This document shows positions 1,626 to 16,059 of a DNA stretch of 16,750 nucleotides, piece after piece (position 1 is the stretch's first letter; every line of letters begins with the position of its first letter). The position numbers and the translations under genes are program-made. Origin of the DNA: an uncultured bacterium. GTDB taxonomy: Bacteria; Abyssobacteria; SURF-5. The stretch lies in the NCBI GenBank assembly GCA_964510165.1, contig CAZEBC010000014.1, forward strand, positions 4,575 through 21,324. Reading direction: 5' to 3'. The notes under the pieces are model-generated. The model worked only from the letters and a program-made list of their open reading frames with translations. It had not been told where the DNA came from and made no database searches.

Positions 1626-1647
1626 GCAGGCAGGATGCCTGCGCTAC
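1626..1647 (-). repeat. GTAG-family REP-like palindrome whose GTAG contains the TAG stop of the AcnX small subunit
   Basis: Minus strand reads GTAG-C-GCAGGCA-TCC-TGCCTGC; TAG is 1646-1644. Confidence 0.65.
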
Positions 1648-2063
1648 GCTTTCCTGGTGACTTCGATGATGCCGGCGTCGGCGTCGAGCTTGATCCAGTC
1701 GCCGTTCCTGATGACCTTGAAGGGGTCCTTGTCGAGGTCGGTCATCATCGGGATGTCGGAAATGGCGCAGCCGAGCACGCAGAGCGAATCGAGTTCGGTG
1801 TTGATGATCGCTGCCGGCGCGACGCCAAGTCGCTTGGCGATGTTGATGTAGGCCGACGTGCCGGACGAGCCTTTGGTGAAGCGGAAGATGAAGACCTTGC
1901 CGGCGAAGCTCTTGCCCTCGAACTTGTTGCCGACCTCGTGCACGACGCCGCGTGTGGGGTCGGTGCCGCCCCAGAACGAGACGCGCTCGTCGGCGATGAG
2001 GGCCTCGCCCTCGGCCTGTCCGCCGACTACTTTCTTTCCTTTTATCGTAATCGTCTTCGGCAT
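1644..2063 (-). CDS. Aconitase X small (swivel) subunit, DUF126 family, 139 aa
   Basis: Signature GGQAEGEALI...VSFWGGTDPTRG...GKSFAGKVFIF..TKGSSG (putative catalytic Ser)...APAAII...GCAISDIP...IRNGDWIKLDADAG. Starts 3 nt after the large-subunit stop. Confidence 0.88.
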   Translation of the reverse strand: MPKTITIKGKKVVGGQAEGEALIADERVSFWGGTDPTRGVVHEVGNKFEGKSFAGKVFIFRFTKGSSGTSAYINIAKRLGVAPAAIINTELDSLCVLGCAISDIPMMTDLDKDPFKVIRNGDWIKLDADAGIIEVTRKA

Positions 2064-2066
2064 GGC

Positions 2067-3287
2067 TCAGTCCCTTCTTCCCTTGATGGCCGCTTCGACG
2101 CAATCCTTCGTGTTCGCGAAGTGCACCTGCGCTCCGATCTGCCCCGGCGCGTAGTACGCTTGCTTGACCGAGTTGGTCATGTATCTCTTGTTGCGCGCCA
2201 TCTCGATCTGGCTGATGCACGGGCAGGTGTCGGCCATGATCTTGCCGCCCGCGTCGGCTATCATCTTGTCGTAACCCATCTTCTCGGCGTACGAGCGGAT
2301 GGAGTCGGTAGTGCAGACCCAGAGTTGAGTGTTGGGCGATATCTTCCTGCCCTCGAGCAGGTGCGCGATCTCGACAATCTCGGTGAGCGTGGCGTGCGGA
2401 CAGCCGAACATGACGATATCGACCTCGGGCGATGGGCAGGTGTTGAGGCGTTGATACACGGCGCGCTTGTGCTTGTTGGTGAATCTGTGGCGGCTTTTCG
2501 GTTGGCGGCCCTGGAAGGCGGCGGTCATGGTGGGCGCCTCGGGGGTGATGCCGACGATGTGGAACATGCCGACACCGCCTTCGGTCGCGAGCGCGGCGCA
2601 CATCTCCTTGGCCTCCTCGAGCGCGGGAACGCGGCATCCTCTGAACACCGGGACGCCAAGGCCTGCGAGGTCGCCACCGAAGTAGCCGAGCGTGCCCCAA
2701 TCGGTGAGGTTGTCCAGGTCGGCCTCGACGTCTATCAGGATCGTGCCGCGCCGGTTCTCGGTGATGTGATTACCGAAACAGGGGATGAAGCCGGTGACGG
2801 CCGCCGGCATGGTGGACTCGGCGCCCTCGCGATTGGTGCGCGCGCCGAGGATGCCGTTCGCGTAGGAGATGGCGGCCGATTCCATCCAGGCGCAGGTCTG
2901 TCCTTTGAGCGGGGCGTTGCCCACGATTTCGGGCGCGCACGTCCAGGTGAGTTGGATGCCCGCCTGGGCGGCCACAGGCACGAGCGAAGCCTGAAGCTCA
3001 TAGCGGCGCTCGTCAATGCCGAACTCGTGCCACTTTTTGAAGTCTATGAAGCCGACGTGAGTAGTGGTCGGCGCCTTCACTCGCAATTGGCCGAACATCT
3101 TGAGGAGCGCGACGACCTCCTCGCCGCCCTCCATCGGGATCGTGAATACCGTGTGCACATTCTCGACGGGGATGAGGTTTTTGGCGCCCATCGCCTCGCC
3201 GTACTTGACGAGATAATTCATCGCCATGGCGATGATCGGGCCGTCTTCCCCTTCGAGCATTCGTTTTTGTTGCTCGGTCAGTTTCAT
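2067..3287 (-). CDS. Aconitase X large (catalytic, Fe-S) subunit, DUF521 family, 406 aa
   Basis: MKLTEQQKRMLEGEDG N-terminus; LTWTCAP; AWMESAAISYANGILGARTNREG; GMFHIVGITPEA; FGCPHATL; ADTCPC; MTNSVKQAYYAPG. GGAG SD upstream. Confidence 0.9.
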   Translation of the reverse strand: MKLTEQQKRMLEGEDGPIIAMAMNYLVKYGEAMGAKNLIPVENVHTVFTIPMEGGEEVVALLKMFGQLRVKAPTTTHVGFIDFKKWHEFGIDERRYELQASLVPVAAQAGIQLTWTCAPEIVGNAPLKGQTCAWMESAAISYANGILGARTNREGAESTMPAAVTGFIPCFGNHITENRRGTILIDVEADLDNLTDWGTLGYFGGDLAGLGVPVFRGCRVPALEEAKEMCAALATEGGVGMFHIVGITPEAPTMTAAFQGRQPKSRHRFTNKHKRAVYQRLNTCPSPEVDIVMFGCPHATLTEIVEIAHLLEGRKISPNTQLWVCTTDSIRSYAEKMGYDKMIADAGGKIMADTCPCISQIEMARNKRYMTNSVKQAYYAPGQIGAQVHFANTKDCVEAAIKGRRD

Positions 3288-3305
3288 AAGCTGTCTCCAG
3301 AATGA

Positions 3306-4019: not shown

Positions 4020-4964
4020 TCATGTGAGCCGGGCGACAGCTTGGGCGTACTCGCGCTTGAGTTTTTCGAAGAGCTCGGCGACGGTGGGAATCTCGCGGAC
4101 AAGCCCGGAGGACTGCCCGGCCTCGAGAACTCCTTTCACGACGTCGCCCCGGACCATTCCGAGTTCGGCGCGGTTGTCCTCGTCCCCAATGATTTTCCAT
4201 ATCTCTTCGGAACTGGCGCCGTCGCGCTCGGCTTGGGCCAGTCGAAGGGTGAACTCGTTCTTCAGAACGCGGAGCATGTTGATCTTGCGGCCGGTGATGA
4301 TTGTGCCCGCATCGCCGGCCTCGACGATCTTGCGCTTGAAGTTTTCGTGCGCCGGGCATTCGACGGTGGCCACAAAGCGCGTGCCCATCTGAACGCCCTC
4401 TGCGCCGAGGCACAGCGCGGCGGCGATACCCCTGCCGTCGGCTATTCCGCCGGCCGTCACAACGGGGATACTGACCGCATCCACCACTTGCGGAGTGAGC
4501 GTGATGGTGCAGATTTCGTCCATGCCGTCATGTCCGCCTGCCTCATAGCCCTCACACACGATCGCGTCGCAGCCAGCCTCCTGCGCCTTCTGAGCGCCTC
4601 TGACGGAAGGAACGACATGGATAATAATGGTGTCATCTCGCTTCAGGAGAGGGGCGGATTTCATCGGGTTCCCCGCTGAGGTCGTGAAAATGCGCGCGCC
4701 TTCTTCGAGTCCGATCTTGCAGACATCCTCGAAATCTGGCCGGAGCATCGGGATATTGAAGCCCCACGGTTTGTCCGTCTTCTCGCGCATGATTCTGAGG
4801 TTCTCGCGAATTTGGTCCCAGGTCATCGAGCCGGCGCCCACCTGCCCAAGGCCGCCCGCATTGGAGACGGCTGCGGCCAGCCGCCAGTTGGACACCCACA
4901 CCATTCCGCCCTGTATCACCGGGTATTCGATCCCGAGCAATGCTGTCAAGCGAGTCTTTTTCAT
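4020..4964 (-). CDS. FabK-like enoyl-thioester reductase / nitronate monooxygenase family FMN-dependent oxidoreductase, 314 aa
   Basis: TRLTALLGIEYPVIQGGMVWVS...LAAAVSNAGGLG; EGYEAGGH (catalytic His); IPVVTAGGIADGRGIAAALCLGAEGVQMGTRF; C-terminal GDV..G.LEAGQSSGLV. GAGGA SD. Sequence alone cannot separate FabK from NMO. Confidence 0.87.
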   Translation of the reverse strand: MKKTRLTALLGIEYPVIQGGMVWVSNWRLAAAVSNAGGLGQVGAGSMTWDQIRENLRIMREKTDKPWGFNIPMLRPDFEDVCKIGLEEGARIFTTSAGNPMKSAPLLKRDDTIIIHVVPSVRGAQKAQEAGCDAIVCEGYEAGGHDGMDEICTITLTPQVVDAVSIPVVTAGGIADGRGIAAALCLGAEGVQMGTRFVATVECPAHENFKRKIVEAGDAGTIITGRKINMLRVLKNEFTLRLAQAERDGASSEEIWKIIGDEDNRAELGMVRGDVVKGVLEAGQSSGLVREIPTVAELFEKLKREYAQAVARLT

Positions 4965-5036
4965 CGTGTTTTCCTCTTCCGATTGGGTCGCGCGTTATGA
5001 TGGTCATCATTCGATACTGTGTGTATTCATGGCGGA

Positions 5037-5066
5037 ATTTTAATGAAATGGTGAAAACAAAGTCAA
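5037..5066 (-). promoter_or_regulatory. Putative sigma70 promoter for the FabK/NMO-family gene
   Basis: Minus strand TTGACT (5066-5061), 18-nt spacer, TAAAAT (5042-5037) in an AT-rich divergent spacer. Confidence 0.5.
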
Positions 5067-5086
5067 CCCGGGAGTCTTGGCATTCC

Positions 5087-5116
5087 TTGACAAGACCCGC
5101 GCATGAGAACGATAAT
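5087..5116 (+). promoter_or_regulatory. Putative sigma70 promoter for the selenoprotein-rlmI unit
   Basis: TTGACA (5087-5092), 18-nt spacer, GATAAT (5111-5116), 48 nt upstream of ATG 5165. Confidence 0.6.
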
Positions 5117-5164
5117 GGAATTGTGTTAGTTTCTATTGCGCTTTGAATTGCGCGGGAAAGACAT

Positions 5165-6139
5165 ATGAGAAGCGGCTACATAGACAGGAAAGCCGCCGCC
5201 AGGCGGGCGGCGTCTCTGATGCTGAAGACAGGCCACTGAGCGCAGGCGACCCTGCTCAATATGCAGGAACTCCTAGGTCTGGGAGATGCGAAGAAGGTGA
5301 GGGCGGCCGCCGGGCTCGCGGGCGGGATTGGTCATCGAGGGGCGGCGTGCGGCATCCTCGTGGGCGGGGCGCTGGTGCTGGGCCTTGCGAGCGCGTCGAC
5401 GGACGAGGAGCAGGCGGACATAATCGCGCGCGGAAGCGCATATGTTGGTGAATACGCGCGCCGATTTAAGAAGTTCGCGGGAAGCACGTTGTGCGCCGAT
5501 ATCACGGGGACCAACTTCGACGATGACGCCCATGTGCGGCGCTACATCCTGAAGCGGGCGCGCAACTGCGTGAAGGTCGCTTCGAGTGCGGCCTCCGAAA
5601 TGGTGGATATAATTGACCGGGGCGCCCAGACGAGCAAGTCCCATTACGCGCTCAACAGCGGATTCTCGGGGCAGGATTTCCATTGCGCCTACACGACGTT
5701 CCTGCGCGCCTCGGAGCAGTCCGGCGCGAACCCCGTGCTTCCCGCAAACATGCTGATTCCGCTCAACGGCGGCATCGGGTACAGCGGCGGCACATGCGGA
5801 GCTTTGTTGGGCGGCTGCGTTTTCATAGGGCTTCAGAAAGGCGGAGACACGAGCCAGGCGGGGACGCTTTCGATTTTGCGGCGGTACATCGTCACGTTGA
5901 TCCAGGGGGCGGCCGCCTTCCAGCGGCTCGACCTTTCGCCCGCCAACGACGCGCTTTTGCGGTGCTCGGCCTTGTACACATGGTTTGAAGGCAGATTCCA
6001 CTCCGCCGCGTGCGGGACGCTCACGCAGACGGATTTTCACAACGCTGACCAGGCTGGCCGCTTCTTCAAGGAGGGAATCGCGAAGTGCGCTTCGATGGCG
6101 GACGAGACGGCAGCGAAGGCCGCGGAACTGGCCCGGTAG
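5165..6139 (+). CDS. Tandem two-domain C-GCAxxG-C-C family redox protein, probable selenoprotein (Sec at codon 25, TGA 5237-5239), 324 aa
   Basis: ATG 5165 is in frame with the 5261 ORF: MRSGYIDRKAAARRAASLMLKTGH-U-AQATLLNMQE... Domain 1 has U25, GGIGHRGAAC62G, C110, C135. Domain 2 has FHC174AY, GGIGYSGGTC211GALLGG, C283, C308. GGGAAAG precedes the ATG, a promoter lies upstream and a SECIS-like hairpin follows the TGA. Confidence 0.85.
5262..5290 (+). promoter_or_regulatory. Candidate bacterial SECIS element
   Basis: Upper stem CTCCTA/TGGGAG (5270-5275/5280-5285, one G-U pair) with apical loop GGTC (5276-5279); lower stem TGCA/TGCG (5262-5265/5287-5290). 36 nt separate the TGA from the loop. 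The A-GGUC-U apex resembles the E. coli fdhF SECIS apex as I recall it. Confidence 0.6.
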
Positions 6140-6155
6140 CCGGGGAGATGGGCGC

Positions 6156-7331
6156 GTGCGGACGGTGAGGCTCAAGAAGAACGAGGACCGCCGCGTTCGG
6201 GCCGGTCATCTGTGGATTTTCAGCAATGAGATCGCCAACATCGCGCAGGAGTTCACGCCCGGCGAGATCGTGGAAGTAGTCACGTATGGCGGCACGTTCG
6301 TCGGACGCGGATACATAAACCCACGCTCTCTCATCTCGGTCCGGCTCTTGACGCGTGAAAGAGAGCCGATAGACCGAGATTTCTTTGTAAGGCGGATCGG
6401 GAGGGCGCTCTCGCTTCGCCATCGCATCTATCCCGAAGAGGACACGTATCGGGCAGTTTTCGGCGAGGCCGATTTGCTGCCCGGTCTGGTGATAGACAAA
6501 TATGGCGATGTGCTTGTGCTCCAGGTTTCGACCCTAGGCATGCAGCAGAGGCTGGGCGAGCTATTGGGCTCGCTGCCCGACGCCGGGCTCAAAGTTCGCG
6601 CGGTTGTGCTGCGAACGGATGAACTCATGGCGGAACTCGAGGGGTTCGCTCCCGAAAACAGGGTACTGAGCGGAGAGCTTGAGGGGCCGGTGCGAATCGA
6701 AAAACACGGCCTGCTCTTCGATGTGGATGTTCTCGAGGGTCAGAAGACCGGCTTTTTCCTCGACCAGCAGGAAAACCGGCGTGAGACTTCGGCCCTGCTG
6801 AGAGACTGGAGCGTGCTCGACTGTTTCTGTTATACCGGCGCGTGGTCGCTCTCGGCGGCGAAATCGGGTGCGAGAAGGGTGGTGGGAATTGACTCGTCGG
6901 CCCGCGCCATAGAGATGGCCCGGCAGAACGCCGCGTTGAATTCGTTTGGATCGGCTTGCTCGTTCGAGGAGGCAAATGTCTTCGAAAAGCTCGAAGAATT
7001 GGCCGAGGACGGAGCGCAATTCGACTGCGTGATCCTTGATCCTCCGGCGCTCGTCAAGAGCAAGAAACACCTCGCGCAGGGCGAAGCCGGGTACGAAAAG
7101 CTTAATCGGCTTGCGATGAGGCTGCTCCCGGCGGACGGGCTGTTGATAAGCTGCTCCTGTTCATTTCATGTTTCCCGCGAGAGGTTTCAGCAGACTCTGT
7201 CGGCGGCGGCGCGGAAGGAGCGGCGCACCGCGGCCGTGTTGGAATGGAGGGGCCAGTCGCGGGACCATCCGACACTGCTCGCGATGCCGGAGACCGCTTA
7301 TCTGAAGTGTGCGGTAACTCGCGTGATGTGA
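6156..7331 (+). CDS. rlmI: RlmI-like class I SAM-dependent rRNA (m5C) methyltransferase with N-terminal PUA domain, about 391 aa
   Basis: Start set at GTG 6156 (GGGGAG SD at 6142-6147). GHLWIFSNEI; FGEADLLPGLVIDKY; GQKTGFFLDQQENR; VLDCFCYTG; FDCVILDPP; SCSCS; DHP...PETAYLK. Confidence 0.88.
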   Translation: MRTVRLKKNEDRRVRAGHLWIFSNEIANIAQEFTPGEIVEVVTYGGTFVGRGYINPRSLISVRLLTREREPIDRDFFVRRIGRALSLRHRIYPEEDTYRAVFGEADLLPGLVIDKYGDVLVLQVSTLGMQQRLGELLGSLPDAGLKVRAVVLRTDELMAELEGFAPENRVLSGELEGPVRIEKHGLLFDVDVLEGQKTGFFLDQQENRRETSALLRDWSVLDCFCYTGAWSLSAAKSGARRVVGIDSSARAIEMARQNAALNSFGSACSFEEANVFEKLEELAEDGAQFDCVILDPPALVKSKKHLAQGEAGYEKLNRLAMRLLPADGLLISCSCSFHVSRERFQQTLSAAARKERRTAAVLEWRGQSRDHPTLLAMPETAYLKCAVTRVM

Positions 7332-11181: not shown

Positions 11182-13923
11182 TCAGTCATGCGCCTCGAGC
11201 CAGTTGCGGCCCGTCCTCACATCGGCTACTATGGGCACGCTGAGGGGATATGCGGTCTCCATGATTCTCTTGACCAACGGTTTCATCTGCTCCACCTCGT
11301 CGGACGGCACATCGAAAAGCAGCTCGTCGTGCACCTGGAGAATCATCTTGGAGCGAAGCCGCAGCGCCTTCAATTCCTCGTCTATTCGTATCATTGCGAC
11401 CTTGATGAGGTCGGCGGCCGAGCCCTGGATCGGCGTGTTGATGGCGATTCGCTCGGCGAACCGTCTCACGCCGAAGTTCTGGCTGTCTATATCGGGGATG
11501 TACCGACGCCGATTCATTATCGTAATCACGTATCCATTGCGGCGAGCCTCTTGTATCATACTCTCGATATACTGCCTCACTCGCGGGAATATCTCGAAGT
11601 AGTGGTCAATAAACTTCTGCGCTTCCTCAAGGTTGATGCCCAGGTCAACCGCGAGCCTGGGCGCCGAGATGCCGTAGAGGATTCCGTAGTTTGCGACCTT
11701 CGCCCGGCGCCGCATTTCCGGAGTGACCTTATCGAGCGGGGTCTGGAAAATCTTGGCGCTCGTCTGGTCGTGAATGTCCTGTCCCTCACGGAACGCCTTG
11801 CAGAGCACCTCGTCGCCGCTGAGTTGCGCGAGGATTCTGAGTTCAATCTGCGAATAATCGGCGGACAACAGGACGTTGTTGGCGTCGCAGGGGACGAAGG
11901 CGCGCCGAATCTCGCGCCCCAGTTCCGACCTGATGGGAATGTTCTGCAAATTCGGTTCGCTGCTGCTGAGGCGTCCGGTGGCCGTGACGGCCTGATTGAA
12001 CGACGTATGGATTCGTCCGGTTTCCGGATTGAGCAGTCCGGGCAGGGCATCGATATAGGTTGACTTGAGCTTGCTCAGAGTCCGATATTCGAGCACTTTT
12101 CTGGGAAGCTCATGTTCGGCGGCCAGTTTCTCGAGCACCGCCATATCGGTCGAGAAGCCGGTCTTGGTCTTCTTGCCGGCTGGCAAGTGCAACTCCTCGA
12201 ACAATATCTTGCCCAACTGCTGTGTCGAGTTGATATTGAATTCGCGGCCGGTCATCTCGTATATCTGTTCCCCGAGGGCTTGCAGTTGGCCTTCGACGCG
12301 GGTGGACAACTCGCGCAGTACGGAAACATCTATGCAGACCCCGCACAGTTCCATCTTTGCCAATACGTGAATGAGCGGAATCTCGACGCCTTCGAAAAGC
12401 TCATACAACTGCTTTTCCTTGAGCAACGGCTCGAGCACCTCCCGCAGGCGAAGGGTGATGTCGGAGTCCTCGCACGAATAATCGGCCGCCTGCCTCACGC
12501 TCACCTTATCCATCGTTGTCTGCGAAGCGCCCTTGCCAATAAGGTGTTCCAGCGGGATCTTTCGGAAGTTGAGATACTCGAGCGCGAGCTGGTCAAGGTT
12601 GTAGTTCAACTTCGAGGGATTCAGCAGATAGGCGGCAACCATCGTGTCGAACTCAACGCCTCTGAGTTCGACGCCCTGCCGTGCGAGCATGACTTCCTCG
12701 TACTTGATGTTTTGACCGGTCTTCTTCACGGAATCATCTTCGAGGAGCGGCTTGAGTCTCTGCAAGACGAGCCTGGGCCCAAGCTGTTTCGGGGGCATCT
12801 CCGAGAACAACTCGCCGCCGTTGTCGTCTCCTCGGTTCTGCTGTGGGGCGACGGCGCCCGCGGTATGGCCGACCGGTATATAGTAAGCTGCTGAAGGCTC
12901 GTGGGCCACGGATATCCCGACGAGCCTCGCCTTCATGGGGTCCTGATGAGTGGTCTCAAGGTCGAGGGTGAAGCTGCCTGCGCGCGTGAGGGCCTCGATG
13001 AGGTGGTCGAGTTGCCGCTCATCGTCAATTATGCGGTATTCAGCGCCGGTCGTCTGCTTGACCTCGACGACTTCATTGATGAGTGAGCGGAACTCGAACC
13101 TCTTGAACAATTCCACGAGCTTATCAGCGTTGTGCTCCCTCAGTTTGCAGGCCTCGATGTCAATATCAAGCGGGACATCGCGGAGGACGGTCACGAGTTC
13201 CCTACTCAGGTACGCCGTCTCCTTATTCTCACGGAGGCTTTCCTGACGCTTTGGCCCCTTGATCTGGTCTATGTGCTCGAATATTCCCTCAAGCGAACCG
13301 TACTCCTTGAGCAGGTCCGCCGCCGTTTTAGGGCCGATGCCCGGCACGCCTGGGATATTGTCAATCTGATCGCCGGTCATGGCGAGCAGGTCGCGCATCT
13401 TTTCCGGCCCGACGCCATACCGTTCCTTTACGGCCCGGGCATCATAAACGAAGTTTTCCTTGTGAGGATGCAGCACCTTGACTCCGTTCGAGACCAACTG
13501 AAGCATGTCCTTGTCACCGGTGACGATGATGGCCTCGACTCCCTTGTCCACGGCGCGCTGCGCCAGGGTAGCCAGGATATCGTCGGCCTCGTACCCGGGA
13601 AGTTCGAAGCTGACGATGTTGAACGCCTCGACGACCTCCTTGATCAGCGGTATCTGGTGGCGCATGTCCTCGGGCTGTTCGGCGCGGTTGGCCTTGTACT
13701 GCTCGTAGCGTTTATGTCTGAACGTCTCGCCTTTCGAGTCGAAGGCGACCGCGATGTACTCGGGCCGCTCGTCCTTTATGAACTTCAGCAGCATTCGCGT
13801 AAATCCGTAGACGGCATTCAGGGCGAGACCCTTCGAATCGGTCAACTGCCGTATCGCGTGAAACGCGCGATACGCATACGAATGCCCGTCTATAAGGTAT
13901 ATTCTCTTCTTGCCGTCATCCAT
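11182..13923 (-). CDS. polA: DNA polymerase I (5'-3' exonuclease, 3'-5' exonuclease and polymerase domains), 913 aa
   Basis: Start moved to ATG 13923 (MDDGKKRIYLIDGHSYAYRAFHA), overlapping the lpxB end by 8 nt. YKANR, GYEADD, TGDKD, DNIPGVPGIGPKTA; TGRLSSSEPNLQNIP; ADYSQIELR; RRRAKVANYGILYG; NTPIQGSAAD; LQVHDEL. Confidence 0.97.
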   Translation of the reverse strand: MDDGKKRIYLIDGHSYAYRAFHAIRQLTDSKGLALNAVYGFTRMLLKFIKDERPEYIAVAFDSKGETFRHKRYEQYKANRAEQPEDMRHQIPLIKEVVEAFNIVSFELPGYEADDILATLAQRAVDKGVEAIIVTGDKDMLQLVSNGVKVLHPHKENFVYDARAVKERYGVGPEKMRDLLAMTGDQIDNIPGVPGIGPKTAADLLKEYGSLEGIFEHIDQIKGPKRQESLRENKETAYLSRELVTVLRDVPLDIDIEACKLREHNADKLVELFKRFEFRSLINEVVEVKQTTGAEYRIIDDERQLDHLIEALTRAGSFTLDLETTHQDPMKARLVGISVAHEPSAAYYIPVGHTAGAVAPQQNRGDDNGGELFSEMPPKQLGPRLVLQRLKPLLEDDSVKKTGQNIKYEEVMLARQGVELRGVEFDTMVAAYLLNPSKLNYNLDQLALEYLNFRKIPLEHLIGKGASQTTMDKVSVRQAADYSCEDSDITLRLREVLEPLLKEKQLYELFEGVEIPLIHVLAKMELCGVCIDVSVLRELSTRVEGQLQALGEQIYEMTGREFNINSTQQLGKILFEELHLPAGKKTKTGFSTDMAVLEKLAAEHELPRKVLEYRTLSKLKSTYIDALPGLLNPETGRIHTSFNQAVTATGRLSSSEPNLQNIPIRSELGREIRRAFVPCDANNVLLSADYSQIELRILAQLSGDEVLCKAFREGQDIHDQTSAKIFQTPLDKVTPEMRRRAKVANYGILYGISAPRLAVDLGINLEEAQKFIDHYFEIFPRVRQYIESMIQEARRNGYVITIMNRRRYIPDIDSQNFGVRRFAERIAINTPIQGSAADLIKVAMIRIDEELKALRLRSKMILQVHDELLFDVPSDEVEQMKPLVKRIMETAYPLSVPIVADVRTGRNWLEAHD

Positions 13924-15109
13924 TAACGACTTCAACCTCTTGTCTGGTTCGGGCGTCGCCGGCAGTGACCGGGGCGCGGCACAGCAATTCGGCGACGACC
14001 CCGGCGGCCTTGCGCGAGGCGCCGGGCGAGCCAAGCATGTTCCTCACCTTTTGCAGATCGCCAATCATGGCGCGCCTTCTGTCGCCCTCTTCGCAGAGTT
14101 GGAGAACCGTCTCGGCCAACAGGTCAGGCCGCATCCGGTCCTGCAAGAGTTCCGGGACCGCTTCTCTTCCCGCCAGTATGTTGACGAGGGAAATATTCGG
14201 AACCCGCAGGAATCGCCTTCCCAGGAACCAGAGCAGGCGGCCGGCCTTGTAGACCACCACGAGCGGCGTGAGGAAACAGGCGACCTCAAGGGTGGCCGTC
14301 CCGGAGGCGACGACGCAGCAGCGCGAAGCCTTCGCCACATCGTATGTCCCGCCTTCGAATACTCTCACAGGCAGTTTCTCCTCGCCTAGGATTTGCCTGA
14401 CAAGTTGAAAGGTGTGCTGATTGCTGCAAGGTATCAGGAACCCGGCGCGCGGCATTTTCTCGAGCACCATCCTGGCCGTCTCAATCATGACCGGCAGCGT
14501 GGCGATTATCTCCTGGCGCCGGCTGCCGGGGAGCAGGCCGATGAGCGTGTCGAACTCGCCTCCCACCCGCGCGGTGAAATCGGCGTCGAGGCCGGTTTCC
14601 GCGATATTGTCTAGCAGTGGGTGCCCGACATATGTCACGTCGACTTTGATTTTCCTATAGAGTTCTTCCTCGAACGGGAGAATGACGATCATCTTGTCCA
14701 CAATGTTCGCGATCTTGCTGATGCGTCCCGGCCTCCATGCCCACACCTGCGGGCTTATGTAGTATGCAATCGGGATGCCCATCTTCTTCGCGGTGGCGGC
14801 CAACCTCATGTTGAAGCCCGGATAATCGACCACTACGAGCGCGTCGGGCCTCCATTGCCTCAAACGCGCGACGGTCTCGCGGAACAGTTTTCGGAAGAAG
14901 CGCAGATTCTTCAGGACTTCGGAGAACCCCATCACGGCGCCGGAAACGAGGTCAGCCCGCAGTTCACAACCAGCCGCTCGCATCCTTTGCCCGCCCAGGC
15001 CTTCCACCTGAAGGTCCGGGAAGGAGGCTCTGAGGGCTGCGATCAGCCTGGCGGCGTGCATGTCGCCGGAATCCTCGCCCGCCACGATGAAAAGCCTGCG
15101 CTGGGTCAT
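13916..15109 (-). CDS. lpxB: Lipid A disaccharide synthase LpxB, 397 aa
   Basis: Start moved to ATG 15109 (ATGA overlap with the upstream stop, AGGAG SD). FIVAGEDSGDMHAA; VDYPGFN; YYISPQVWAWR; ILPFE; YVGHPL; LLPGSRRQEI; ASGTATLE; PELLQ. Confidence 0.95.
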   Translation of the reverse strand: MTQRRLFIVAGEDSGDMHAARLIAALRASFPDLQVEGLGGQRMRAAGCELRADLVSGAVMGFSEVLKNLRFFRKLFRETVARLRQWRPDALVVVDYPGFNMRLAATAKKMGIPIAYYISPQVWAWRPGRISKIANIVDKMIVILPFEEELYRKIKVDVTYVGHPLLDNIAETGLDADFTARVGGEFDTLIGLLPGSRRQEIIATLPVMIETARMVLEKMPRAGFLIPCSNQHTFQLVRQILGEEKLPVRVFEGGTYDVAKASRCCVVASGTATLEVACFLTPLVVVYKAGRLLWFLGRRFLRVPNISLVNILAGREAVPELLQDRMRPDLLAETVLQLCEEGDRRRAMIGDLQKVRNMLGSPGASRKAAGVVAELLCRAPVTAGDARTRQEVEVVNG

Positions 15110-16059
15110 TCGTATCTCCTGGCGCGGATGACCTGGACGATATCGGAGGCCACCTGCAGCGCCTCGCGCGCGTCGCGGCCGGAGACCGCTGGAGCGCGTC
15201 CGGTACGCACGCTGTCCACGAATGCCTCTATCTCGCGCCTGAGCGGCTCCTCTTTGTCCACGGGGACGCTCTCGACGATTATCGCCTGAGGGTTCTCCCA
15301 GTCGATGGGTCCCTTTCTCAACTGATAGCACTTGATTGACTGGGCCGCGTAATCCAGCGAGAAATAGGTATAGGGCTGGAATATGCGAATCTTGCGCATA
15401 GGCTCGGCCGATATGCGGCTCGCCGTCACGTTGGCGACGCACCCATTGCGGAACAGGAGCCTGGCGTTGGCGATGTCTTCCTCGTTCGAAACCAGCGGCA
15501 CTCCCACTGCGTCGATTATCCTCTCTACGGGCGAATTCAAGAGATTAAGGATGATGTCCAGGTCGTGTATCATCAGGTCGAGCACGACGTTGACGTCGCA
15601 GCCGCGCGGAGTGAAAGGCGCCAATCGGTGTGACTCTATAAACATGGGCTTTCTTATCCGTTCGCGCAAGGTCTGGACGGCGGCGTTGAACCGCTCGAGA
15701 TGACCCACCTGCAACGTGACGTTATTCTGCCGACTGAGTTCTATAAGCGTGTCGGCCTCTGTGACGGTCGTCGCTATCGGCTTCTCAAGGAGCACATGTT
15801 TTTTCTTGCGCAAGAAGTATTCAGTTACCTCAAAGTGCTTGCTTGTGGGCACCGCCACGCTCACGGCGTCCACCTGTTCGGCCAACTCCCTGTAATCTAA
15901 GAAGGCCCTTGTCTTCAAATCGGCGGCCACTTGCCTGGCCCGTTCCTCGTTGATGTCGGCGACGCCGGCCAGCTCCACGTTCGGGAGCAAGGCGAGATTG
16001 CGCGCGTGATGAAAACCGAGATGGCCAACGCCGGCCACGCCCGCCCTGATCTTATCCAT
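15106..16059 (-). CDS. Gfo/Idh/MocA family NAD-dependent oxidoreductase, candidate GnnA-like UDP-GlcNAc 3-dehydrogenase, 317 aa
   Basis: GVAGVGHLGFHH Rossmann motif; HVLLEKPIA; QVGHLERFN; DVNVVLDLMIHDLD; NGCVANVTASRIS. Lies between lpxA and lpxB. Confidence 0.88.
   Translation of the reverse strand: MDKIRAGVAGVGHLGFHHARNLALLPNVELAGVADINEERARQVAADLKTRAFLDYRELAEQVDAVSVAVPTSKHFEVTEYFLRKKKHVLLEKPIATTVTEADTLIELSRQNNVTLQVGHLERFNAAVQTLRERIRKPMFIESHRLAPFTPRGCDVNVVLDLMIHDLDIILNLLNSPVERIIDAVGVPLVSNEEDIANARLLFRNGCVANVTASRISAEPMRKIRIFQPYTYFSLDYAAQSIKCYQLRKGPIDWENPQAIIVESVPVDKEEPLRREIEAFVDSVRTGRAPAVSGRDAREALQVASDIVQVIRARRYE

What the first reader, a model, noticed from the sequence alone, without database searches (positions are those of the whole stretch)
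5165..6139. Hidden selenoprotein: in-frame UGA at the first Cys position of a C-GCAxxG-C-C redox protein
Seen in sequence: the ORF track starts this gene at 5261, but the frame extends to ATG 5165 through a single TGA (5237-5239), giving ...KTGH-*-AQA.... The protein's own second domain is an internal control. CAC-TGA-GCG (H-*-A) aligns with CAT-TGC-GCC (H-C-A, 5681-5689), and in both domains that position lies exactly 37 residues before the Cys of GGIGxxGxxCG. Without readthrough, domain 1 lacks its first helix and first Cys. Other genes here end in TGA (rlmI, polA, lpxB), so TGA is not globally reassigned. Established: this family has a four-Cys motif and unknown function, and as I recall Sec-containing members have been annotated. 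Inference: UGA is decoded as Sec, standard gene callers will truncate the gene, and the host encodes SelA/B/C/D.
Basis: partly seen in the sequence, partly recalled or inferred. Interest (0 to 1): 0.9.

Follow-up and report, generated by a model that had tools for sequence, protein, structure and literature searches.

The report
Overlooked selenocysteine codon in redox gene
A UGA codon near the start of this bacterial gene almost certainly encodes selenocysteine rather than stop, so public records list the protein 32 residues too short; the protein family is already known to include selenoproteins.

Summary
ATG 5165 to TAG 6139 is one frame broken only by TGA 5237-5239. It gives a 324-aa tandem C-GCAxxG-C-C protein whose first conserved Cys position in domain 1 is the TGA; domain 2 has Cys at that position.

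The Sec reading is strongly supported:
- All 10 orthologues in the bacterial family (52-63% identity) keep the TGA at the same codon, with a conserved ATG and 24 upstream codons that evolve like coding sequence.
- Seven more distant database homologues have Cys there.
- The 17 codons after the TGA show the strongest synonymous constraint in the gene (0.76 vs 0.45). They hold a hairpin with a GGUC loop that fits the published bacterial SECIS geometry.
- The genome has selA, selB and selD (itself with a Sec-TGA), and a Sec-type fdhA.

The weak points: no tRNA-Sec gene is in this fragmented assembly (5 of 5 relatives have one), no compensatory base pairs were seen, and there is no protein-level evidence.

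Novelty is low. NCBIfam names TIGR01909 "C-GCAxxG-C-C family (seleno)protein", and two reviews list the family among known selenoproteins.

Two useful by-products came out of the work. At least 34 of 50 database homologues start at the truncated site, and domain 1 resembles in fold the iron-centre domain of split-Soret cytochrome c.

The parts
5087..5116 (+). Sigma-70-like promoter (TTGACA, 18 nt spacer, GATAAT; 11 of 12 matches), about 49 nt upstream of ATG 5165
   Evidence: 3 promoter-like sites in 4900-6300 against 0.5 expected from shuffles. This is a consensus match only. Its position suggests the mRNA includes the 24 codons upstream of the TGA.
5154..5160 (+). Weak Shine-Dalgarno-like GGGAAAG, 4 nt before ATG 5165
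   Evidence: Most orthologues carry a GGAGG-, GGGGG- or GGAAG-like purine run just upstream of the aligned ATG (read by eye from the sequences printed).
5165..6139 (+). Full coding sequence of the tandem C-GCAxxG-C-C selenoprotein: 324 aa, stop TAG 6137-6139
   Evidence: PF09719 scores 109.5 bits (cut-off 27) in 2 stretches; TIGR01909 scores 69.3 bits (cut-off 47.4). The AF2 model has pLDDT 93.0 and pTM 0.93.
5165..5236 (+). The 24 N-terminal codons missed by gene callers; they form helix 8-22 of the model
   Evidence: The ATG is aligned in 10 of 10 orthologues. Mean pairwise differences at codon positions 1/2/3 are 0.28/0.32/0.54, like the rest of the gene at 0.32/0.23-0.27/0.57-0.59. The Cys-form homologues run straight through this region.
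5237..5239 (+). In-frame TGA, read as selenocysteine U25; the first Cys position of domain 1
5251..5267 (+). Hairpin H1: CCUGC, 7-nt loop, GCAGG. It starts 11 nt after the UGA
   Evidence: The stem is kept in the orthologues while the loop varies. A G falls in the first two loop positions in only 3 of 10, so H1 is not the best SECIS apex.
5270..5285 (+). Hairpin H2: CUCCUA, loop GGUC, UGGGAG. This is the candidate SECIS apical stem-loop, with its loop 36 nt after the UGA
   Evidence: In 10 of 10 orthologues the loop is 4-6 nt with a G in its first two positions, the stem is 5-8 bp, and the spacing is 35-36 nt. Own-genome fdhA and selD have GGUCU and GGUUC loops after their Sec-TGA.
5240..5290 (+). 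Zone of synonymous constraint (codons 26-42), taken as the footprint of the RNA element
   Evidence: identical-codon fraction among same-residue pairs is 0.76 (609 pairs) against 0.45 (7624 pairs) elsewhere, the highest in the gene; third-position difference is 0.30 against 0.57-0.59.
5165..5623 (+). Domain 1 (residues 1-153), with site residues U25, C62 (5348-5350), C110 (5492-5494) and C135 (5567-5569)
   Evidence: VIA-align matches model residues 1-153 to 1h21_A with Z 10.2.
5624..6136 (+). Domain 2 (residues 154-324), all-Cys site: C174 (5684-5686), C211 (5795-5797), C283 (6011-6013) and C308 (6086-6088)

Best explanation
Window 5165-6139 (+) is one gene for a 324-residue, all-helical, probably cytoplasmic protein made of two tandem C-GCAxxG-C-C domains.

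- Recoding (inferred). UGA 5237-5239 is read as selenocysteine by the standard bacterial route. SelB carrying Sec-tRNA(Sec) is recruited by a SECIS stem-loop inside the coding sequence just downstream. The best candidate is hairpin H2 (5270-5285, GGUC loop, 36 nt from the UGA), preceded by a second conserved hairpin H1 (5251-5267).
- Position in the protein (shown by alignment). Sec25 takes the first of the four conserved Cys positions of domain 1 (U25, C62, C110, C135). Domain 2 keeps Cys at all four positions (C174, C211, C283, C308).
- Chemistry (inferred). Sec25 is the reactive or ligand residue of a redox or metal site. The nature of the site is open: either a thiol/selenol redox centre or, as the fold match to split-Soret cytochrome c suggests, an iron centre.
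- Annotation (shown). The 292-aa product on public record is an N-terminally truncated miscall.
For: 1. The TGA is conserved. All 10 genomes of the bacterial family, the window's own included, hold an orthologue (52-63% identity) with exactly one TGA, at the same codon (GH-U-AQATL).
2. The upstream part is coding. The ATG aligns in 10 of 10 orthologues, and the codon-position substitution pattern matches the rest of the gene.
3. Sec/Cys pairs exist. Seven of 50 database homologues contain ...TGHC[AG][QP]A... at the aligned position, 5 of them with the full upstream region. Domain 2 and a distant single-domain homologue have H-C there.
4. There is an RNA footprint. Codons 26-42 show the strongest synonymous constraint in the gene (0.76 vs 0.45). 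The residues LLGLGD encoded by H2 are fixed in Sec forms but variable in Cys forms (LIGFDG, FLQFEP, LLSVDD, MLTLDM).
5. H2 fits three of the four published bSECIS constraints in 10 of 10 orthologues (model read in the Fig. 2 legend of PMC13188914).
6. The machinery is present and used. selA scores 581 bits and selB 340 bits. selD scores 394 bits and carries its own Sec-TGA (GGUACK). fdhA scores 882 bits and has CARLUH. A single-domain paralogue also has a TGA at its first Cys position.
7. TGA is the commonest stop in the genome.
8. The family is curated as "(seleno)protein" and is listed in two reviews' tables (passages read).
9. In the AF2 model, U25 opens helix 25-37 just as C174 opens helix 174-186. 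Truncation at Met33 would remove helix 8-22 and most of helix 25-37.
Against: - No tRNA-Sec gene is in this assembly. The best RF01852 hit scores 45.9 bits against a cut-off of 47 and is a tRNA-Leu. ARAGORN finds 40 tRNAs, none of them Sec. BLAST with the relatives' selC finds only 15-19-nt matches. The assembly has 325 contigs. Five of 5 relatives searched have selC.
- selB is cut off by a contig end.
- None of the 13 predicted pairs shows a compensatory change; the region is too conserved to covary.
- The 64 nt from the UGA do not fold better than shuffles (z = -0.35; 67 of 200 shuffles fold as well).
- H2 alone is -6.9 kcal/mol in this genome, short of the model's -7.5. Only 5 of 10 orthologues pass this criterion with H2 alone.
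- The spacing of 35-36 nt is near the model's upper limit of 37.
- Rfam gives no match in the window.
- There is no protein or selenium evidence of any kind.
Confidence: 0.9

Rival explanations
1. The UGA is a real stop. The functional protein is the 292-aa product from ATG 5261, and the 24 upstream codons are a short upstream ORF or untranslated leader.
For: This is what gene callers produce: the window's own product is on record as a 292-aa protein (P0002), and 34 of 50 homologues start at that site. Met33 is invariant. No tRNA-Sec gene is in the assembly.
Against: - The frame, the ATG and the codon-like substitution pattern upstream are conserved in 10 of 10 orthologues.
- Cys-form homologues are continuous through this point.
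- The truncated product would lack one of the four invariant site residues and the first two helices.
- There is no purine-rich ribosome-binding motif before ATG 5261, whereas one precedes the upstream ATG in most orthologues.
Confidence: 0.04
2. The UGA is translated, but not as selenocysteine. It is read by near-cognate read-through (Trp, Cys or Arg) or by an unrecognised suppressor tRNA.
For: selC is not found in this assembly. There is no direct evidence for selenium.
Against: - selA, selB and selD are present, and selD and fdhA carry their own Sec-TGA at the canonical catalytic positions.
- Five of 5 relatives searched, each carrying the same TGA, have tRNA-Sec.
- TGA is the main stop codon of the genome.
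- The position is a Cys in homologues, which is the usual signature of a Sec site.
- ARAGORN lists no tRNA with anticodon UCA.
Confidence: 0.04
3. The TGA is an assembly error or a recent nonsense mutation, making the gene a decaying pseudogene.
For: None beyond the bare presence of a stop codon.
Against: The TGA is present in 10 of 10 orthologues spanning 8 genera. It is also present in contigs of 4 runs from 3 studies. The gene is otherwise intact and its profile matches are strong.
Confidence: 0.01

Closest known systems
C-GCAxxG-C-C family (seleno)proteins (Pfam PF09719, NCBIfam TIGR01909); listed as 'C-GCAxxG-C-C family protein' forms 1 and 2 in the selenoprotein tables of PMC9312934 and PMC13188914
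   Same: The profile match is above both curated cut-offs. The four-Cys pattern is present. Sec replaces a conserved Cys. The function is unknown ('putative redox-active protein').
   Different: This protein is a tandem of two such domains in one chain, with Sec only in the first, and it comes from a small candidate phylum (relatives are labelled Candidatus Abyssobacteria). I could not see the sequences behind the reviews' 'form 1' and 'form 2'. Only table rows were read and supplements are closed. So I cannot say whether either form has Sec at this position or has this architecture.
HUGP/GUXX-star fusion selenoprotein (NF045501) and DVU_1555 family C-GCAxxG-C-C protein (NF045669)
   Same: Both models match domain 1 (52.6 and 77.4 bits). 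The name 'HUGP' suggests His-Sec, as in H24-U25 here; this is an inference from the name alone.
   Different: Both scores are far below the curated cut-offs of 325 and 103 bits, so this protein is not a member of either.
[quoted passage not shown]
   Same: - Fold: VIA-align gives Z 10.2, rmsd 3.6 A, 141 residues aligned and 21% identity, covering model residues 1-153. The next hit has Z 4.5.
- Sequence: marginal profile matches, E 0.044 and 0.028.
- Residues: C62, C110 and C135 align with Cys of the cytochrome.
   Different: - There is no CxxCH haem motif in the window protein (read).
- The first-Cys/Sec position aligns with Ala in the cytochrome.
- Foldseek alone was not significant (E 0.69).
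- That the cytochrome's iron centre is a Cys-bound iron-sulfur cluster is my recollection. The paper is not held.
Bacterial SECIS elements (consensus model in PMC13188914, Fig. 2 legend; E. coli fdhF as prototype)
   Same: The stem-loop lies within the coding sequence just 3' of the UGA. The loop is small with G in its first two positions followed by G or U, and the spacing falls within 16-37 nt. The GGUC loop equals the E. coli fdhF loop as I recall it.
   Different: The apex lies 35-36 nt from the UGA, near the model's limit. A second conserved hairpin (H1) fills the spacer. H2 alone does not reach -7.5 kcal/mol in this genome.

Membership tests
C-GCAxxG-C-C family (PF09719 / TIGR01909) | Profile match above the curated cut-off | tested here: met
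   PF09719 scores 109.5 bits against a cut-off of 27, in 2 stretches. TIGR01909 scores 69.3 bits against 47.4. Domain 1 alone, read through the TGA, scores 47.6 against 47.4. Domain 2 alone scores 32, below the cut-off.
C-GCAxxG-C-C family (PF09719 / TIGR01909) | Four conserved Cys in the order C ... G-C-[GA]-x-x-G ... C ... C | tested here: met
   Domain 1 has U25, C62 (CGILVG), C110 and C135. Domain 2 has C174, C211 (CGALLG), C283 and C308. All are invariant in the 10 orthologues and in the domain-on-domain alignment. The first position of domain 1 is Sec, not Cys.
Bacterial selenoprotein gene | In-frame UGA conserved among orthologues, with coding sequence on both sides | tested here: met
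   10 of 10 orthologues. The codon-position pattern upstream is that of coding sequence.
Bacterial selenoprotein gene | Homologues with Cys aligned to the UGA | tested here: met
   7 of 50 database homologues, the protein's own domain 2, and a distant single-domain homologue in L033.
Bacterial selenoprotein gene | SECIS stem-loop downstream that fits the bSECIS model: loop 3-9 nt, stem 4-16 bp, G in the first two loop positions, spacing 16-37 nt, MFE at or below -7.5 kcal/mol | tested here: inconclusive
   H2 meets the loop, stem, G and spacing constraints in 10 of 10 orthologues. The MFE of H2 alone is at or below -7.5 in 5 of 10, and is -6.9 in this genome. There are no compensatory pairs. 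Strong synonymous constraint supports an RNA element.
Bacterial selenoprotein gene | Host encodes SelA, SelB and SelD | tested here: met
   All three score above the curated cut-offs. selB is cut off by a contig end.
Bacterial selenoprotein gene | Host encodes tRNA-Sec (selC) | tested here: not met
   selC was not found in this 325-contig assembly, which is 97% complete by marker genes. It is present in 5 of 5 relatives searched. Absence from the organism is not shown.
Bacterial selenoprotein gene | Selenium physically present in the polypeptide | not testable with these tools
   This needs 75Se labelling or mass spectrometry.
DVU_1555 family (NF045669) / HUGP-GUXX-star fusion (NF045501) | Score above the curated cut-off | tested here: not met
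   77.4 bits against 103, and 52.6 bits against 325.
Split-Soret cytochrome c | c-type haem attachment motif CxxCH | tested here: not met
   None of the Cys in the 324-aa sequence lies in a C-x-x-C-H motif (read). Only the N-terminal non-haem part matches in fold.

The most novel reading that the evidence does not exclude
The four-residue site of the C-GCAxxG-C-C domain may bind an iron or iron-sulfur centre like the one in the structurally matching N-terminal part of split-Soret cytochrome c. In this tandem protein, domain 1 would then carry a selenocysteine-ligated, or selenocysteine-gated, metal centre next to an all-cysteine twin in domain 2. That would be a natural side-by-side Sec/Cys pair in a single chain. 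The conserved two-hairpin arrangement, with the apex 35-36 nt from the UGA, would be a lineage-specific extended SECIS.
Probability: 0.2. Interest if true: 0.6.

Novelty: new member of a known kind. Interest (0 to 1): 0.3.

Why it matters
- Annotation. The window's own product and at least 34 of the 50 closest database homologues are on record as proteins starting at the Met33 equivalent. If the UGA is read as Sec, those records lack the first 32 residues, including the likely reactive residue.
- Biology. The finding adds a selenoprotein, a single-domain paralogue, and Sec-type SelD and FdhA to a little-studied candidate phylum. It also offers a natural Sec/Cys internal control within one chain, for a family whose function is still unknown.
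- Limits. It does not open a new kind of system. Sec decoding, the family, and Sec use within the family are all already described.

Tried and rejected
- Rfam at gathering thresholds gave no match in the window.
- The search for related loci with the single protein in genome contigs found nothing. With the alignment it returned only 7 loci, on contigs of lengths already seen among the genome search and database hits.
- Two metagenome scans gave nothing useful. The first found no relative. The second used a degenerate motif pattern and found one locus holding only a distant single-domain relative, 36% identity over residues 14-110. I therefore could not get DNA of the more divergent Sec forms (for example those with LLGQRD or LLGLRD) to test covariation in H2.
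- RNAalifold found no compensatory pair.
- Foldseek against the PDB had no hit at E <= 0.001. The 1h21 match rests on VIA-align and on marginal profile hits.
- No RNA holder was listed among the public runs, so expression is untested.
- I looked for selC beside selB and through synteny with relatives. It is not next to selB in relatives, and its flanks are not syntenic.
- The literature gave no functional study of the family. Searches for 'C-GCAxxG-C-C' and 'C_GCAxxG_C_C' found 3 and 6 papers, all with passing mentions only.
- The split-Soret structure paper is not held, and papers citing it gave no ligand details.
- The listing of cluster members gave no organism names for the Cys forms.
- The model's coordinates are not exposed, so distances between U25, C62, C110 and C135 could not be measured.
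- Supplements of the selenoprotein reviews and databases, which may hold the 'form 1' and 'form 2' sequences, are closed.

Full report
**The observation**

The window sequence shows ATG at 5165, an in-frame TGA at 5237-5239 and TAG at 6137-6139. The mechanical ORF list starts the frame at ATG 5261, giving 292 aa. Read with TGA as U, the frame gives 324 residues with a single recoded codon, U25, in the context LKTGH-U-AQATL.

The product matches Pfam PF09719 (C_GCAxxG_C_C) at 109.5 bits in two stretches. It matches NCBIfam TIGR01909 at 69.3 bits against a cut-off of 47.4. NCBIfam's name for that model is "C-GCAxxG-C-C family (seleno)protein".

I aligned domain 1 (residues 1-153), domain 2 (154-324) and a single-domain paralogue. 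The invariant columns were U/C25, G53, G54, G56, C62, F101, C110, F118 and C135. So the TGA sits exactly where domain 2 has C174 (5684-5686). In both domains this position lies 37 residues before the Cys of the GGIG..G..CG motif.

**TGA is an ordinary stop elsewhere**

Five of the 9 other window genes examined end in TGA, and lpxB does too. TGA also closes 933 of 1597 open frames of at least 400 codons in the genome.

The TGA at 5237-5239 is not an assembly slip. Contigs from 4 public runs in 3 studies cover it and show no other letter there. One of these is a hot-spring strain that differs at 23 positions over 1120 bases. One run may be the source sample.

**Comparative evidence**

The phylum is small in the genome library, with 11 species genomes.
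- All 10 genomes of the window's family, its own included, hold an orthologue of 52-63% identity with exactly one internal TGA. The single genome of the sister family has no match.
- In all 10 the TGA is at the same codon (H-U-AQATL). All 10 also have an ATG 24 codons upstream.
- Most have a purine-rich ribosome-binding motif before that ATG.
- The 24 upstream codons evolve like coding sequence. Mean pairwise differences at codon positions 1, 2 and 3 are 0.28, 0.32 and 0.54. The rest of the gene shows 0.32, 0.23-0.27 and 0.57-0.59.
- A sigma-70-like promoter (11 of 12 matches) lies about 49 nt upstream of ATG 5165.

The 5.8-billion-protein collection returned 50 homologues at E <= 1e-10. I sorted them by their N-termini.
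- 29 start at MQ[DEN]LLG by the script's pattern, and 5 more start at the same position with variant residues (my reading). So 34 of 50 are calls from the Met33 equivalent. One of them is the window's own 292-aa record.
- 7 contain ...TGHC[AG][QP]A... with Cys at the TGA position. Five of these also carry the upstream region (I-D/N-R/K-K-A...ML.TGHC). The other two are called from the Met19 equivalent.
- 9 are fragments or have other starts.

This is the classical Sec/Cys pair signature.

**The RNA element**

The sequence after the TGA is far more conserved than 52-63% protein identity would predict.
- The fraction of identical codons among same-residue pairs is 0.76 for codons 26-42 (609 pairs) and 0.45 for the rest (7624 pairs). 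The four highest 10-codon windows in the gene all lie between codons 21 and 45.
- Third-position divergence there is 0.30, against 0.57-0.59 elsewhere.
- RNAalifold predicts two hairpins: H1 (5251-5267, CCUGC/GCAGG with a variable 7-nt loop) and H2 (5270-5285, CUCCUA-GGUC-UGGGAG).

I tested both against the published bSECIS model (Fig. 2 legend of PMC13188914, read). That model asks for a loop of 3-9 nt, a stem of 4-16 bp, a G in the first two loop positions, 16-37 nt between the UGA and the loop, and an MFE of -7.5 kcal/mol or lower.
- H2 meets the first four constraints in 10 of 10 orthologues. The loops are GGUC, GGGUCU, CGGGAC or CGGUCU, the stems are 5-8 bp, and the spacing is 35-36 nt.
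- H2 alone reaches -7.5 kcal/mol in only 5 of 10, and is -6.9 in this genome.
- H1 has a G in the first two loop positions in only 3 of 10.

Two further points favour H2.
- The residues it encodes (LLGLGD) are fixed in Sec forms but free in Cys forms.
- The genome's own fdhA and selD have hairpins with GGUCU and GGUUC loops after their Sec-TGA, about 18 and 32 nt downstream.

Several points count against the RNA element.
- None of the 13 predicted pairs shows a compensatory change.
- The 64 nt from the UGA fold no better than shuffles (z = -0.35).
- Rfam has no match in the window.

**The Sec machinery**

The machinery genes found are:
- selA, at 581 bits;
- selB, at 340 bits, cut off by the end of a 3.8-kb contig;
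- selD, at 394 bits.

All three score above their curated cut-offs.

The genome also appears to use Sec elsewhere.
- selD carries a TGA at the catalytic GG-U-ACK position.
- One of the two formate dehydrogenase alpha genes that score above the curated cut-off carries CARL-U-H.
- A 149-aa single-domain paralogue has a TGA at its first Cys position. It scores 76.9 bits on TIGR01909.

The gap is selC.
- The best RF01852 hit scores 45.9 bits, below the cut-off of 47, and ARAGORN calls it tRNA-Leu.
- ARAGORN lists 40 tRNAs in the genome, none of them Sec.
- BLAST with the relatives' tRNA-Sec finds only 15-19-nt matches.
- All 5 relatives searched have a 95-nt tRNA-Sec at 67-69 bits.

I read the gap as a hole in a 325-contig assembly, but this is not shown.

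**The protein**

AlphaFold2, run with a 43-sequence alignment, gives a confident all-helical model (pLDDT 93.0, pTM 0.93). U25 opens helix 25-37, just as C174 opens helix 174-186. Starting at Met33 would delete helix 8-22 and most of helix 25-37.

The structure and profile searches gave these results.
- Foldseek against the PDB has no significant hit.
- The exhaustive VIA-align search finds one outlier: 1h21_A, split-Soret cytochrome c, whose entry is titled "A novel iron centre...". The match has Z 10.2, rmsd 3.6 A, 141 residues aligned and 21% identity, covering model residues 1-153. The next hit has Z 4.5.
- Profile searches give the same chain as top hit at marginal E-values (0.044 and 0.028). 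C62, C110 and C135 align with Cys of the cytochrome. The first-Cys/Sec position aligns with Ala.
- The window protein has no CxxCH motif.

I recall that the cytochrome's non-haem centre is a Cys-bound iron-sulfur cluster, but I could not read the paper. This makes an iron-centre role for the four-residue site a lead, not a result.

**Gene neighbourhood**

The neighbours give no functional hint. They are a divergently transcribed nitronate-monooxygenase-like gene upstream, then rlmI, lptF/lptG, rho and polA downstream. The arrangement is partly syntenic among orthologous loci. The NMO-like gene was seen in 5 of the 9 loci from the relatives' genomes, within 1.5-kb flanks.

**What is known and what is new**

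Two reviews list "C-GCAxxG-C-C family protein" (PF09719) among prokaryotic selenoprotein families. The 2026 review splits it into forms 1 and 2 (table rows read). NCBIfam curates the family as "(seleno)protein" and has a related HUGP/GUXX-star selenoprotein model. So Sec in this family is established.

I could not see whether the tandem architecture with Sec only in domain 1 corresponds to either published form, because the sequences and supplements were not available. The literature searches found no functional study of the family.

**Verdict**

The finding is a new, systematically mis-annotated member of a known selenoprotein family, in a poorly known phylum.

The mechanism of recoding is standard. 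The chemistry of the Sec site is unknown. I rate the thiol/selenol redox and iron-centre readings as both open, with about 0.2 for a Sec-linked iron centre. Interest is modest.

Noticed in passing
L041:1495-1941 (-) = G000:C147:2245-2691: A second hidden selenoprotein of the same family: a 149-aa single-domain C-GCAxxG-C-C protein with an in-frame TGA at its first Cys position (FN-U-TQSV). It scores 76.9 bits on TIGR01909. Relatives have the same arrangement, with 1 TGA.
   Followed up: partly
L009 (G000:C52:8450-9370, +): selD itself carries an in-frame TGA at the catalytic GG-U-ACK position. A hairpin GCGCA-GGUUC-UGCGC lies about 32 nt downstream.
   Followed up: partly
L063 (G000:C185:3497-5488, +) and L064 (G000:C216:3929-5965, +): The genome has two high-scoring formate dehydrogenase alpha genes. 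One has a Sec-TGA (CARL-U-H) followed by a GUGGCC-GGUCU-GGCCAC hairpin. The other has no internal stop and is presumably a Cys form.
   Followed up: partly
whole genome G000: No tRNA-Sec gene is in the assembly, although selA, selB, selD and at least four Sec-TGA genes are present. Only 40 tRNA genes were found. selB is cut off by the end of contig C276.
   Followed up: yes
window 5165-5623 (model residues 1-153): The C-GCAxxG-C-C domain matches in fold the N-terminal non-haem part of split-Soret cytochrome c (1h21_A, Z 10.2). Three of the four site Cys align with Cys of that protein. This hints that the family's Cys site may bind an iron centre.
   Followed up: partly
window 5037-5116: Back-to-back sigma-70-like promoters lie in the 200-bp gap between the NMO-like gene (- strand; TTGACT/TAAAAT, 10 of 12 matches) and the selenoprotein gene (+ strand; TTGACA/GATAAT, 11 of 12 matches).
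   Followed up: no
window 1635-3305 (+) versus 2067-3287 (-): The long 556-aa ORF on the + strand has no Pfam match. The opposite strand encodes aconitase X (PF04412, 428.8 bits). The + ORF is probably a shadow frame of GC-rich DNA.
   Followed up: no
window 13916-14034: The mechanical ORFs for lpxB (13916-15442, -) and polA (11182-14034, -) overlap by about 119 bases. The polA start is probably further downstream than the TTG listed.
   Followed up: no
window 5472-5474: The hot-spring strain (runs X3 and X4) has one base left out at 5472 and one put in behind 5474. This is a compensated pair that shifts the frame over a single codon only.
   Followed up: no
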